Virus record (IMG/VR): IMGVR_UViG_2870479586_000001
Span: 1 to 58,638 of that record
Length of the DNA stretch: 58,638 nucleotides
From: a virus
Lineage: Duplodnaviria > Heunggongvirae > Uroviricota > Caudoviricetes
Strand: one strand, 5' to 3'
Of the stretch, positions 12,001-15,000 are shown one piece after another. A program made the position numbers. How positions within the stretch are numbered: position 1 is the stretch's first letter; every line of letters begins with the position of its first letter.

Positions 12001-15000
12001 CGATGCAGGGCTATTCGCATCGTCCTGGCTTCAAGTATTGGCAATCTCCGCACCCGCATGAGCGCCTGTGCTTTGAAATGGCTTGTGTGGCATTCGAAAC
12101 CATTCGCGGCTCAGATGTAATGGACGCCGTATCTGAGTTGGAGGATGAAGAATGAGCAACATCGACAAACGCGCATTACGTGAAATCGCTGAGGCAGCAG
12201 TTGGTGCACATGAGCGCCTTAGTGTTATGCCGCCTGATGACATTTTCGATATCTCACTGGCAGAATGAACTCAGCTTGATGCAGATATCACTGCCTTGAA
12301 CGCGCTGAACTCCGCAGCCAACCCAGCCACAGTGCTGGCGCTGCTGGATGAGCTGGAAGCCAAAGACCAGAGGATTGCTGTGCTGACCGAATCGCTCAAG
12401 CAGACGGTTTCAGGATACAAATCCTGCCTGCGTACCGGACATGAGCGCATTCTTGACCTTGGCGGTGACTGTGACGCGCCAGAAGTGATGATTGCAGGCA
12501 ATCCTGACATTCAGCAGGCGCAGAAGCTGATCGCCGCCGCATCCGGTAAAGGAGAGGCATCATGAGCACTATTACCAAACAATGGCTGCAGCAGAAAATT
12601 GCCGACATGGAAGCAGCCAGAGATGAAATCCCGTTCGGTCTGGACGAAGGCGACAGCAACACGCTGGCGGCACTGCGTATCGCGCTGGCATCGCTCGAAG
12701 CGGAGCCTGCCATTCACCGGTGGCGTCGTGTGACCTCTGAGCCATACGGCCCCTATCCTTGGCATTATGGTGATTTTATCGGCTTCTCAAAGCCCGTTGA
12801 TGGGATTGAGGATGAGTATTTTTACTCCGCCCCGCCAGAGCCAGCCAATGCCGAAACCGTAGCCTGGCTGTGGTCACACAGGAAACACCCGAGCGAAGTC
12901 ACGCTTGTTCGCCCTGAAGATGATGAGAGAGCGGAGGGTGCTCACTAGTCTGGCTGGAGTTGTCAGGCGCTTTATGCAGCACCGCCAGTTCCGGTATCTG
13001 TGCCCACATTCGAGAAATGGTGTGAGTTGACTGAGCAGAAACCTGTCGGATGGGTGCGTGATGCTATGAAAGAAGCGTATGACGGATGCCGCGACGCCAT
13101 GCTTCAGGGTGCCGAAAAAGCCGAGTCGCCCACCACCATGCAGACCGCGCCAGCCCTAGATTCTTCGCCCAAAATTTCCGAGTCGCCCGTCAGCAACTCT
13201 CCGGTGATTCCGGATGGTTGGGTGCTGGTTCCTAAGGAGCCAACTCCAGAAATGCGTGAGGCGTACCATCAGGCGCAGGAAGAGTGTGAAGATGGCGGTG
13301 GATTATGGAGCCCAGACCACCAATGGAAGGCCATGATCGCAGCAGCACCGCAGCAGGAGGCGAAGTGATTATGTCGTGACAGCATAATTGCGATGTCAAC
13401 GATAAGCAGAGGTTTGAAAATGAAATCACAATCACCAGTGCAGCATGAAGTTAACATCGACGGCAAAGAGTATGTTGTCACAGTAGTCCAAACCGGCAAG
13501 TCAACGTGGAGGGCATGGGGAGATTCCTGGGGGCGCCATATAGTCGAAACAGGTTCTAGCGAACATAGCGCGCTTTCTCATTGGAAAGCAAAAGCTTTAG
13601 TTATGAATGGGTAGCGCGGAAACTTTGAAGGTATAATCCCCTCAAATAATCGAGGGGGTTTTTATGTCTGGTTGGGATAACGGTATAGATGCAGTTTCTG
13701 CGATTGCAGCTATCGCATCTGCGGTAGCAACTTATTTAGCATGGCGATCCTCAGAAGCTAGCAGGGCCACATCCGAAAAAGCTTTGCAGTTGCAAGGAAA
13801 GCAGTATTTGTACGAGACATTAAAAGCTTGCGCTGAGAGAGCGAATTCATACTCAAAAGGAAAGAAAGGGGCTGACTGGAGCTTTCATGACGCAGCCAAT
13901 ATTGTTCGATGTTTGAACATGGCAATGGGGAGCATAATAAATTACTCAGATACCAACAATCAGGATGCAATGAAAGGTCTGAAGCAATTCTTTATTAGCC
14001 AATTAAACATGGAGCTTTTTGAAGAGCTCAACTATGAGGTTGGGCCTGATGCCTTCTTTCACGGAGAGGAGCTAACCAGCATGACGAGCGATATTTACTC
14101 GCAGTGGTTAAACATTATTTCATTCTTTAACCTCATGATTGTCACAGATGATGACCTCGCCGATGAAACATAGCTTGATTGATTTTCCATAATCAACCCG
14201 CCATAATCATGTCATCGGAGCCTGAACAACTCCGGTGACTTCTGCGCTAAACGGGGACGTTTATGCGCACATACAATCCAAACTCTCTTCTCCCTTCACA
14301 GATGCAGAAATGCACCTGCAATTCTTTGCATCTAGCGTTTGACCTCTGCGGAGGTGAAGCGTGAACCTCCCACAAGACGGTATCAAATTGCATCGCGGTA
14401 ACTTCACCGCTATCGGTCAGCAGATCCAGCCTTATCTGGAGGACGGAAAATGCTTTCGCATGGTGCTTAAACCGTGGCGCGAGAGACGCAGTCTTTCCCA
14501 GAATGCACTCAGCCACATGTGGTACAGCGAAATCAGCGAATACCTCATCAGCAGGGGGAAAACGTTCGCTACTGCAGTATGGGTAAAAGATGCACTCAAA
14601 CACACTTATCTCGGTTATGAAACCAAAGAACTGGTTGATGTCGTAACCGGTGAAATCACCACCATTCAGTCATTACGTCATACCTCCGATCTCGATACCG
14701 GAGAGATGTATGTCTTCCTGTGTAAGGTTGAAGCCTGGGCGATGAATATTGGCTGCCACCTGACTATTCCGCAGAGCTGCGAGTTCCAGCTGCTGCGCGA
14801 CAAGCAGGAGGCGTAATGGCTACACCGCTTATTCGTGTCATGAACGGACACATCTACAAAGTACCAAATCGTCGTAAGCGTAAACCTGAGCTGAAGCCAT
14901 CCGAAATACCAACTCTGCTCGGATATACCGCCAGCCTGGTTGATAAAAAATGGTTGCGACTGGCAGCAAGGAGGAATCATGGCTGATTTGAGAAAAGCAG

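What the first reader, a model, noticed from the sequence alone, without database searches (positions are those of the whole stretch)
13631..14173. Nin-region moron with hairpin-sequestered ribosome-binding site
A 169-aa AT-rich ORF with an N-terminal membrane anchor is inserted between the small ren-side genes and the ninB-like gene. Immediately 5-prime of its ATG is a perfect hairpin (CCCCTC...GAGGGG) followed by T5. The 3-prime arm GAGGGG is the only SD-like sequence and would be base-paired, and TATAAT abuts the hairpin. This looks like a terminator that doubles as a translational control element for an independently regulated cargo gene. The same slot in the second prophage holds the adhesin and esterase.
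Basis: partly seen in the sequence, partly recalled or inferred. Interest (0 to 1): 0.55.

Follow-up and report, generated by a model that had tools for sequence, protein, structure and literature searches.

The report
Shared hairpin header before prophage genes
A small prophage gene of unknown function, probably membrane-anchored, is headed by a 32-base element (TATAAT box, a hairpin that buries the ribosome-binding site, a run of Ts) that proves to be a conserved, reusable gene header found in front of at least nine unrelated genes in related phages.

Summary
TATAAT (13632-37) abuts a CCCCTC/GAGGGG hairpin (9 bp with flanks, -14.2 kcal/mol, z -3.65), followed by T5 and the ATG of a 169-aa ORF. 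GAGGGG is the only Shine-Dalgarno (SD) sequence.

The ORF is a real gene: dN/dS is 0.1-0.3, it matches phrog_1779, and about 36 clusters exist, with named members from Enterobacterales. It has a hydrophobic N-terminal helix and an acidic all-helical domain. No known family or fold matches it.

The hairpin does not belong to this gene alone. The same cassette (TATAAT, CCCCTC, variable loop, GAGGGG, A/G-T4-6, ATG) sits in at least 119 viral contigs. There it heads at least nine unrelated gene families, including the DNA polymerase III theta homologue Hot, a 60-aa ORF, DUF1643-like and HNH-like proteins. Phage HK639 carries it annotated as a terminator. Arms and hexamer stay fixed while loops (19 variants) and synonymous sites (dS about 2) are scrambled.

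Best reading: a portable insulating header. It terminates and translationally silences read-through RNA. A -10-only promoter would start transcripts in the loop, leaving the SD less occluded (opening cost 7 versus 14 kcal/mol). No -35 is conserved, so the promoter part is inferred.

The closest analogues are lambda tR2 and the T4-type PeSL cassettes.

The parts
13632..13637 (+). TATAAT hexamer, a perfect -10 consensus that abuts the hairpin. Its last three bases are the bottom of the 9-bp stem.
   Evidence: In 48 unique cassettes retrieved through three unrelated proteins the hexamer is TATAAT 42 times, TATACT 3, TACAAT 2 and AATAAT 1. A at position 2 and T at position 6 never change, and the base just upstream is random. 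No -35 or TGn is present.
13635..13660 (+). RNA hairpin with a 9-bp stem (G+C core CCCCTC 13638-43 / GAGGGG 13652-57) and 8-nt loop AAATAATC. It is terminator-like.
   Evidence: Searches give -13.7 to -14.2 kcal/mol and z -3.65. The arms are fixed while 19 loop variants exist. U.G intermediates and C-G to U-A / A-U to C-G compensatory changes are seen. The same element is annotated as a terminator in HK639.
13652..13657 (+). Shine-Dalgarno GAGGGG, which is also the 3' arm of the hairpin. It lies 6 nt upstream of the ATG.
   Evidence: P(unpaired) is about 0 in read-through RNA. Keeping the initiation region open costs 14 kcal/mol there and 7 kcal/mol if the RNA starts in the loop. In 43 of 48 unique cassettes the ATG lies 5-9 nt after this arm and there is no other SD.
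13659..13663 (+). T5 tract: terminator U-tract and SD-to-ATG spacer.
   Evidence: The tail is (A/G)T4-6 in most cassettes but is interrupted (ATTATT, ATTAAA) in a few.
13664..14173 (+). ORF169, a protein-coding gene of unknown function. It has a hydrophobic N-terminal helix (residues 8-26, nt 13685-13741) and an acidic all-helical domain with a DEDLAD-type C-terminus.
13393..13614 (+). Small ORF (73 aa from 13393, or 64 aa from ATG 13420, which follows an AGAGG). It lies between the upstream 268-aa gene and the cassette and is not annotated in RefSeq relatives.
   Evidence: In L023, L024 and HK639 the cassette follows the upstream gene family directly, without this segment. In strain S51 the same C-terminus is part of a 160-aa CDS. 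No family match.
14175..14207 (+). Right border of the variable slot: conserved TTGATT-17-CATAAT promoter-like element (-35 at 14179-84, -10 at 14202-07).
   Evidence: 9 of 12 matches. Annotated as putative -35/-10 in phage 82 X92588. Similarity to thousands of E. coli prophages begins here.
14211..14269 (+). Two-hairpin leader of orf33(ylcH)-ybcN. Hairpin 1 (14211-39) has the conserved loop CCUGAACAA. Hairpin 2 (14243-69) has loop GGGA and carries the orf33 ATG in its 3' arm.
   Evidence: The stems differ between phages while pairing is kept. The second copy lies at about 57073-57165. No Rfam family matches at gathering threshold.

Best explanation
The 32 bases in front of ORF169 are one copy of a conserved, portable gene-header cassette of enterobacterial lambdoid phages. 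It consists of a -10 hexamer, a 9-bp G+C-rich hairpin whose 3' arm is the Shine-Dalgarno sequence, a short U-tract, and then the ATG (usually ATG-TCN).

Shown:
- The cassette is conserved as a unit in front of unrelated genes and behind unrelated upstream DNA.
- Its arms and hexamer are under purifying selection while its loop is not.
- In RNA coming from upstream the SD is fully base-paired inside a terminator-like hairpin.

Inferred mechanism:
1. RNA polymerase arriving from the early operon either terminates at the hairpin and U-tract, as at lambda tR2, or, if antiterminated, makes RNA whose SD is locked away. Read-through RNA is therefore poorly translated.
2. The TATAAT hexamer acts as a weak, -35-independent promoter. 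Its start site, 7-8 nt downstream, falls on the conserved A at the beginning of the loop. Such transcripts lack the 5' arm and carry a 20-nt leader whose SD is less occluded. The gene is then expressed autonomously, for example in the lysogen, whatever lies upstream.
3. The cassette on the left and the conserved ybcN leader on the right are islands of homology in a variable slot. They likely serve as recombination linkers that swap cargo genes in and out.

ORF169 itself is a real accessory protein, probably a bitopic inner-membrane protein (N-out, acidic helical domain in the cytoplasm). Its function is unknown. A role in superinfection exclusion or defence is a guess from position only.
For: Portability:
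- Different proteins follow it: the Hot/theta homologue, a 60-aa ORF, ORF169, DUF1643-like, TonB-C-like, a 192-aa membrane protein, a 232-aa protein, an HNH-like protein and others.
- In loci retrieved by protein rather than by the motif, 48 of 101 unique upstream regions of three unrelated families carry it.

Selection:
- Window versus L026 has dS of about 2 and a different loop, yet all 18 hexamer and arm bases are identical.
- 19 loop variants coexist with CCCCTC in 42 of 48 and GAGGGG in 44 of 48 cassettes.

RNA-level pairing:
- U.G intermediates occur in L018, L020/L021, L040 and L045.
- Compensatory changes are CCCTTC/GAAGGG in L039, the flank pair A-U to C-G (TATAAT..ATT to TATACT..AGT), and CCATCTC/GAGAGG in L339.

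Hexamer behaviour:
- Only positions 1, 3 and 5 vary. A2 and T6 are invariant.
- Conservation starts exactly at its first base.
- The second loop base, 8 nt after the hexamer, is A in 89 of 114 contexts.

Other support:
- HK639 carries an almost identical cassette, annotated as a terminator, in the same genomic position.
- Lambda tR2 sits in the same position, 20 nt before ninB.
- The slot is a cargo hot spot.
Against: - No -35 or extended -10 is present here. The best -35 match is 3 of 6, and the scan does not call a promoter.
- Across 114 upstream contexts the -35 match distribution equals background. A -10-only promoter would be weak.
- The hexamer's last three bases are part of the stem. 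In symmetric variants (TATAAT..ATTATA) the whole hexamer pairs, so part of its conservation has a structural explanation.
- Even a loop-initiated RNA is predicted to pair its SD with coding sequence. The opening cost falls from 14 to 7 kcal/mol, not to zero, and the result depends on the 3' end chosen.
- The U-tract is short and is interrupted in some copies.
- True double compensatory changes are few because the arms hardly vary.
- Several cassette-headed genes (the Hot/theta homologue, the HNH-like protein) look like lytic-cycle functions, which fits lysogen-only expression poorly.
- No transcript or protein data were available.
- No N-like antiterminator was recognised in this prophage.
Confidence: 0.5

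Rival explanations
1. It is a plain backbone terminator. The element is simply this phage group's tR2-equivalent intrinsic terminator with the next gene's SD built into it. TATAAT is not a promoter; it is the A/U-rich base of the stem. Downstream genes are translated at a low level, or after antitermination, from early-operon RNA. The cassette looks portable only because recombination joints cluster at this conserved regulatory site.
For: - HK639 annotates it as a terminator.
- Lambda tR2 sits in the same position.
- There is usually one copy per locus.
- No -35 is conserved.
- The AAT/ATT and ACT/AGT flank pairs covary.
- Symmetric TATAAT..ATTATA variants exist.
Against: - The unpaired first three hexamer bases (TAT) are as conserved as the stem, while the next base upstream is random.
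- An SD locked in a -14 kcal/mol stem should be almost untranslatable in read-through RNA. Yet 43 of 48 cassettes have no other SD in front of genes under purifying selection.
Confidence: 0.28
2. Ribosome-dependent unmasking. Ribosomes finishing the upstream ORF close to the hairpin melt it, which both reduces termination and frees the SD. The cassette gene would then be translationally coupled to whatever lies upstream.
For: A TGA lies 2-5 nt before the hexamer in many contexts (motif TGAT, with T in 85 and G in 76 of 114 contexts). In 29 of 100 contexts an ORF of at least 40 codons ends at -5 or -8.
Against: - In this window the upstream ORF stops 17 nt before the hexamer and 21-23 nt before the stem, outside a terminating ribosome's reach.
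- 47 of 100 contexts have no long ORF ending nearby.
- A ribosome stopped at -5 would open only the A-U base of the stem.
Confidence: 0.1
3. DNA-level site. The inverted repeat with TATAAT is an operator or a recombination or nuclease target recognised as double-stranded DNA, which would explain its sequence-specific conservation and its association with gene swapping.
For: The arms are conserved in sequence, not merely in complementarity. Mosaic joints coincide with the element. One copy heads an HNH endonuclease gene.
Against: - Several copies carry U.G-type changes (CTCCTC, CCTCTC, CCCTTC opposite GAGGGG). These keep RNA pairing but break DNA symmetry.
- The arm sequence is explained by its SD role.
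- The variable loop length of 6-9 nt is unusual for a dimer operator.
- No candidate binding protein co-occurs with the element.
Confidence: 0.07
4. There is no function. The hairpin next to TATAAT is a chance arrangement, or a recently spread hitch-hiker.
For: Single TATAAT hexamers are common by chance.
Against: The pattern has 0.01 expected occurrences per window. The arms and hexamer are identical across lineages whose synonymous sites are saturated and whose loops differ.
Confidence: 0.03

Closest known systems
Predicted terminator of phage HK639 (NC_016158 41560..41586), between HK639_59 and the hot (theta) gene
   Same: It is essentially the same cassette: TATAAT-CCCCTC-AAATAACC-GAGGGG-GTTTT-ATGTCT. 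It sits in the same genomic position, after the same upstream gene family (C-terminus ..APQQK) and before the ybcN/NinB leader.
   Different: There it heads an unannotated 60-aa ORF followed by hot, not ORF169. The record calls it only a terminator and notes neither the -10 hexamer nor the SD in the stem.
Lambda tR2 (intrinsic terminator between ren and ninB)
   Same: It is a G+C hairpin with a U-tract placed between the replication/ren genes and the first nin gene, about 20 nt before that gene's ATG. By established knowledge it is read through by N-modified polymerase.
   Different: There is no sequence similarity. Lambda's ninB SD (GGGGGAGAGGG) lies outside the hairpin, and no -10 hexamer abuts the stem.
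PeSL composite promoter-terminator cassettes of T4-type phages (Arbiol et al. 2010, PMC2839356; Comeau et al. 2014, PMC4122927)
   Same: These are short conserved composite elements of stem-loop, promoter, SD and start codon. They head many unrelated small ORFs in hyperplastic regions and are proposed to mediate modular gene shuffling.
   Different: - In PeSLs the stem-loop lies upstream of a full -35/-10 early promoter and the SD is separate. Here the -10 precedes the stem, no -35 exists and the SD is the 3' arm.
- PeSLs occur in many copies per genome. Here there is usually one per locus and occasionally two.
- The phage lineage is different.
Morons of lambdoid phages (Juhala et al. 2000, as cited in PMC4104026)
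   Same: It is an accessory gene inserted between backbone genes, with lower G+C and a patchy distribution, possibly with its own promoter.
   Different: The classical moron has a promoter 5' and a terminator 3' of the gene. Here the terminator-like hairpin is 5' and overlaps the putative promoter, and no 3' terminator was found.
SD-sequestering hairpins in translational control (for example MS2 replicase; the de Smit and van Duin stability rule). Cited from general knowledge.
   Same: The SD is paired in a stable local stem, so initiation should fall steeply with stem stability (14 kcal/mol opening cost).
   Different: The known cases are opened by upstream translation, temperature or ligands. 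Here the proposed release is transcript-start choice, which is untested.

Membership tests
Intrinsic (Rho-independent) terminator | G+C-rich stem of at least 5 bp with a short loop (3-8 nt) | tested here: met
   6 G+C-core pairs, 9 pairs in all, 8-nt loop, -13.7 to -14.2 kcal/mol.
Intrinsic (Rho-independent) terminator | U-rich tract immediately 3' of the stem | tested here: met
   The tail is GUUUUUAU, and the scan's criterion of at least 5 T in 8 is met. The tract is short and is interrupted in a minority of family copies.
Intrinsic (Rho-independent) terminator | Transcripts actually end at the U-tract | not testable with these tools
   No transcript data were available. The HK639 'terminator' feature is a depositor's prediction.
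Sigma70 promoter | -10 hexamer close to TATAAT with A at position 2 and T at position 6 | tested here: met
   Perfect TATAAT at 13632-37. A2 and T6 are invariant in 48 of 48 protein-selected cassettes.
Sigma70 promoter | -35 hexamer at 16-18 bp, or an extended -10 TGn | tested here: not met
   The best -35 match here is 3 of 6 and there is no TGn. The scan does not list a promoter. Across 114 contexts -35 matches equal background, and TGn occurs in 2 of 114.
Sigma70 promoter | Mapped transcription start 6-9 nt downstream of the -10 | not testable with these tools
   The only indirect evidence is a conserved A at the second loop position, 8 nt after the hexamer (89 of 114 contexts).
Moron (lambdoid accessory gene unit) | Present or absent between otherwise conserved neighbours, with deviant base composition | tested here: met
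   24-25 of 5426 E. coli genomes carry the unit, against 2829 with the right flank. GC is 43% against 50-54%.
Moron (lambdoid accessory gene unit) | Own promoter upstream and own terminator downstream of the gene | tested here: not met
   No terminator-like site lies between the stop codon (14173) and the next promoter-like element. The only terminator-like hairpin is 5' of the gene, and the promoter is a -10 alone.
PeSL-type mobile regulatory cassette | Conserved composite terminator/promoter/SD/start element heading unrelated ORFs | tested here: met
   At least nine unrelated downstream protein families share the cassette.
PeSL-type mobile regulatory cassette | Many copies per genome flanking each variable ORF, plus recombination products between copies | tested here: inconclusive
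   Most loci have one copy. Two copies 0.6-2.6 kb apart occur in L098, L115, L149, L166 and L197. Recombination is inferred from mosaic joints only.
PeSL-type mobile regulatory cassette | Stem-loop upstream of a complete early promoter (-35 and -10) | tested here: not met
   The order here is -10, then stem, and there is no -35.
Known anti-phage defence or exclusion proteins (PADLOC models) | Significant match to a defence-system profile | tested here: not met
   No PADLOC hit at E up to 0.1. No Pfam or NCBIfam match. No informative fold match.

The most novel reading that the evidence does not exclude
Enterobacterial lambdoid phages possess a roughly 35-nt self-insulating gene header that packs three functions into one hairpin: a terminator for incoming transcription, an anti-SD lock for any read-through RNA, and a -35-independent promoter whose start site skips the lock. 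This header, together with the conserved ybcN leader, would act as the recombination linker that shuffles accessory genes through the nin slot. It would be a lambdoid counterpart of the T4 PeSL system with a different and more compact logic.
Probability: 0.33. Interest if true: 0.65.

Novelty: new variant of a known kind. Interest (0 to 1): 0.5.

Why it matters
If the model holds, it explains how accessory genes dropped into the early operon of temperate phages can be expressed on their own schedule, without being driven by or interfering with the lytic cascade. It would also explain how such genes are exchanged precisely at their start codons between phages.

It would provide a compact natural insulator part of about 35 nt. 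It would also give a simple sequence handle (TATAAT-CCCCTC..GAGGGG-Tn-ATG) for finding cargo genes in enterobacterial prophages. These include ORF169, whose function is unknown and which occurs, in its two E. coli variants, in about 4% of complete E. coli genomes (24-26 plus 181 of 5426).

If only the terminator reading holds, the finding is an ordinary tR2-type terminator in front of an uncharacterised gene.

Tried and rejected
**Protein function.** Every search came back empty.
- Pfam, NCBIfam and PADLOC gave nothing for ORF169 or for ten distant family members.
- The PDB profile search gave nothing.
- BFVD Foldseek gave nothing at E up to 0.001.
- The afdb50 library was unavailable.

**RNA families.** Rfam at gathering threshold found only a tRNA and isrC in the window.

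**Motif and literature searches.**
- A motif search without the hexamer (CCCCTC..GAGGGGNTTTT) was swamped by unrelated phage terminators and could not test hexamer conservation. Protein-anchored loci were used instead.
- A literature search for the cassette sequence found nothing relevant. Searches on tR2, nin and moron found no description of this element.

**Leads that failed.**
- Phage P1 hot is not preceded by the cassette; it has the late promoter LPhot.
- The type-B upstream region (PhiR26_1 group) seemed to repeat the logic, with TTGATT-17-GATATT and an anti-SD in the spacer. Its hairpin is not better than shuffles (z -1.66) and the scan does not call the promoter, so it was not used as evidence.
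- Strain 2020CK-00188 looked like a new upstream context but is a deletion remnant that truncates the ORF.
- MAFFT with RNAalifold on the ybcN leader misaligned the stems. Single-sequence folds were used instead.
- No N-like antiterminator was recognised on the PL side, so read-through by antitermination remains an assumption.
- A thermosensor reading was rejected because a -14 kcal/mol perfect stem would not melt at physiological temperature.
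Full report
**1. The observation**

The window carries a lambdoid prophage. Its genes run CI-like repressor, Cro-like and CII-like regulators, O, P, ren, small Ead/Ea22-type genes, the ORF in question, orf33(ylcH), ybcN (NinB-like), ninE, ybcO, rusA and a phage-82-type Q.

TATAAT lies at 13632-37, CCCCTC at 13638-43 and the loop AAATAATC at 13644-51. GAGGGG lies at 13652-57, followed by G, T5 at 13659-63 and ATG at 13664. The ORF extends to 14173 and encodes 169 aa.

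With its flanks the stem has 9 pairs. Its energy is -13.7 to -14.2 kcal/mol, and no shuffle out of 200 folds as well (z -3.65). The terminator scan lists it. The arm pattern is expected 0.01 times per window by chance.

**2. The gene**

ORF169 is a real gene.
- It matches phrog_1779 end to end (E 2.5e-77, function unknown).
- It has 29 close homologues; those that carry a name come from E. coli, Enterobacter, Serratia and Scandinavium, and further loci from Citrobacter, Kluyvera and Phytobacter.
- Only 36 representative clusters exist among 1.84 billion proteins.
- dN/dS against relatives is 0.10-0.31.

Its GC content is 43%, against 54% on the ren side and 50% on the nin side.

Residues 8-26 form an Ala/Ser-rich hydrophobic helix (Kyte-Doolittle 1.74; 1.5-2.4 across the family). 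The N flank is acidic or neutral and the C flank basic. This fits an N-out, C-in membrane anchor. The rest of the protein is acidic (23 D+E against 12 K+R) and is predicted to be all-helical (pLDDT 69).

**3. Distribution and the slot**

The whole segment 13380-14370 occurs in 25 of 5426 complete E. coli genomes. DNA from about 14167-14179 rightwards occurs in 2829 of them. A 46%-identical variant of the gene sits in the same slot in phages PhiR26_1 and PhiR5_1 and in 181 E. coli genomes.

In the second prophage of the window the same slot holds a split inverse-autotransporter adhesin and a BD-FAE esterase. The slot is bounded on the right by the same ybcN leader.

**4. The key result: the hairpin is not private to this gene**

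Among ORF169 homologues with quite different upstream DNA, the block from TATAAT (or TATACT) through the hairpin to the T-run recurs.

In these the cassette is followed, usually directly by ATG, by many different proteins:
- an 85-aa homologue of P1 Hot / DNA polymerase III theta;
- a 60-aa basic ORF;
- ORF169;
- a DUF1643-like protein;
- a TonB-C-like secreted protein;
- a 192-aa membrane protein;
- a 232-aa protein;
- an HNH-like protein;
- and others.

To avoid selecting on the motif, I fetched loci through the Hot and 60-aa proteins. I then looked for any hairpin with at least 8 of 9 positions paired upstream of the start codon. Of 101 unique upstream regions of the three families, 48 carry the cassette. 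In those 48:
- the hexamer is TATAAT 42 times, TATACT 3, TACAAT 2 and AATAAT 1;
- the 5' arm is CCCCTC in 42;
- the 3' arm is GAGGGG in 44;
- there are 19 different loops;
- the ATG lies 5-9 nt after the stem in 43, so the 3' arm is the only SD;
- the start is ATG-TCN in 36.

Phage HK639 has an almost identical copy (loop AAATAACC) in the same genomic position. Its depositors annotated it as a terminator.

**5. Evidence for selection and for RNA pairing**

Window and L026 have saturated synonymous divergence (dS about 2) and unrelated loops. Yet all 18 hexamer and arm bases are identical.

The changes that do occur mostly keep RNA pairing.
- U.G intermediates appear in CTCCTC, CCTCTC and CCCTTC opposite GAGGGG.
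- A full C-G to U-A switch appears in L039 (CCCTTC/GAAGGG).
- The flank pair switches from A-U to C-G (TATAAT..ATT to TATACT..AGT).
- L339 has CCATCTC/GAGAGG.

G.U-type changes favour an RNA structure over a DNA palindrome. The arms are conserved in sequence, not just in complementarity. That is what one expects if the 3' arm must remain an SD and the 5' arm must remain its complement.

**6. What the hexamer may be**

Its last three bases belong to the stem. In a few symmetric copies (TATAAT..ATTATA) the whole hexamer pairs.

The first three bases are unpaired in the normal cassette, yet they are as conserved as the stem. Conservation begins exactly at the first T. A2 and T6, the two bases most critical for a -10 element (general knowledge), never change. 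The second loop base, 8 nt after the hexamer, is A in 89 of 114 contexts. A start there would produce RNA lacking the 5' arm.

Against a promoter: no -35 or TGn is present here, and none is enriched across 114 contexts.

Folding supports the logic only partly. The SD is never unpaired in read-through RNA, where opening costs 14 kcal/mol. A loop-initiated RNA still needs about 7 kcal/mol, because of predicted pairing with coding sequence.

**7. Most likely mechanism (confidence about 0.5)**

The cassette is a portable insulating gene header.
- Incoming early-operon transcription is terminated, as at lambda tR2. That terminator sits in the equivalent place, 20 nt before ninB, but its SD lies outside the stem.
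- RNA that reads through is translationally silent.
- The hexamer supplies weak autonomous transcription that starts inside the hairpin and leaves the SD less occluded.
- The cassette on the left and the conserved ybcN leader on the right are islands of homology. They can mediate replacement of the gene between them.

Steps shown: the anatomy, conservation, portability and pairing. Steps inferred: termination, promoter activity, transcript-dependent translation and recombination.

**8. Rival explanations**

- A plain tR2-type terminator with no promoter (0.28).
- Unmasking by ribosomes finishing an upstream ORF (0.10). A TGA lies 2-5 nt before the hexamer in many contexts. In this window, however, the upstream stop is 17 nt away.
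- A DNA-level operator or recombination site (0.07).
- Chance or hitch-hiking (0.03).

**9. Comparison with known systems**

It works like lambda tR2 plus an SD-sequestering hairpin, and it is the same element as the HK639 predicted terminator.

As a conserved composite header of unrelated ORFs, it most resembles the PeSL promoter-terminator cassettes of T4-type phages (PMC2839356, PMC4122927). It fails their defining layout: a stem-loop upstream of a full -35/-10 promoter, a separate SD, and many copies per genome.

It is moron-like in distribution and composition. It lacks the classical 3' terminator, and its promoter is unproven.

I found no description of this cassette in the searchable literature. 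That is not proof of novelty.

**10. Verdict**

The main correction is that the hairpin-RBS device is a shared, portable cassette rather than a control element specific to this cargo gene. Novelty: a new variant of a known kind. Interest: 0.5.

Noticed in passing
window 14175-14269; second copy about 57073-57165: A conserved promoter-like element (TTGATT-17-CATAAT, annotated as putative in phage 82 X92588) is followed by a two-hairpin leader of orf33(ylcH)-ybcN. Hairpin 1 has a 10-bp stem that differs between phages while pairing is kept, and a conserved 9-nt loop CCUGAACAA. Hairpin 2 has covarying stems and loop GGGA, and carries the orf33 start codon in its 3' arm. It looks like an undescribed structured leader or protein-binding RNA (boxB-like). 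The conserved DNA from about 14179 rightwards that contains it occurs in 2829 of 5426 E. coli genomes. No Rfam family matches.
   Followed up: partly
window 12946-12948 (within 12562-13368): The gene upstream of the slot is one 268-aa CDS in strain SF-468. In the window it carries a premature stop at codon 129 (Trp to stop), which splits it into ORFs 12562-12948 and 13000-13368.
   Followed up: yes
window 13393-13614: A small ORF (73 aa, or 64 aa from ATG 13420, which follows an AGAGG) lies between that gene and the cassette. It is not annotated in RefSeq relatives and matches no family. In strain S51 the same C-terminal 46 codons end a 160-aa CDS, so it may be a swapped C-terminal module.
   Followed up: partly
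loci L039-L041, L045, L328, L330, L355 and many others (upstream of the cassette): Many cassette copies are preceded by a tiny ORF, MPKSPAERKAA(Q or HPSS)*, that overlaps the previous gene's stop. More generally, a TGA lies 2-5 nt before the hexamer (motif TGAT). This hints at a fixed stop-codon-to-hairpin distance.
   Followed up: partly
loci L098, L115, L149, L150, L153, L197, L198: Symmetric versions of the cassette (TATAAT-CCCCTC-loop-GAGGGG-ATTATA) match on both strands and have no attached ATG. In L098, L149 and L197 one of them lies about 570 bp downstream of a normal cassette, so a gene is bracketed by two copies.
   Followed up: no
cassette copies in general: Unrelated proteins headed by the cassette mostly begin Met-Ser (ATG-TCN in 36 of 48 unique copies). 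The conserved unit, or the recombination joint, therefore extends into the second codon.
   Followed up: no
window 52274-53269 and 53473-55728: The inverse-autotransporter adhesin of the second prophage is split into a beta-domain ORF and an Ig-repeat ORF, so it is possibly a pseudogene. The replication gene P next to it is truncated (152 aa, covering positions 46-162 of the 162-position Pfam model).
   Followed up: no
window 58323-58445 and 1369-1441: Rfam finds the Hfq-binding sRNA isrC (135 bits) downstream of the second prophage's ybcN, and a tRNA next to the first prophage's integrase end.
   Followed up: no
L210 2319-2501 (HK639 41585-41767): HK639 has an unannotated 60-aa basic ORF (MSNEEMTPAEKY..RKKRGRTAD) directly after its 'terminator'. 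The ORF is conserved in 43 viral contigs, so the annotated terminator there is also a gene header.
   Followed up: partly
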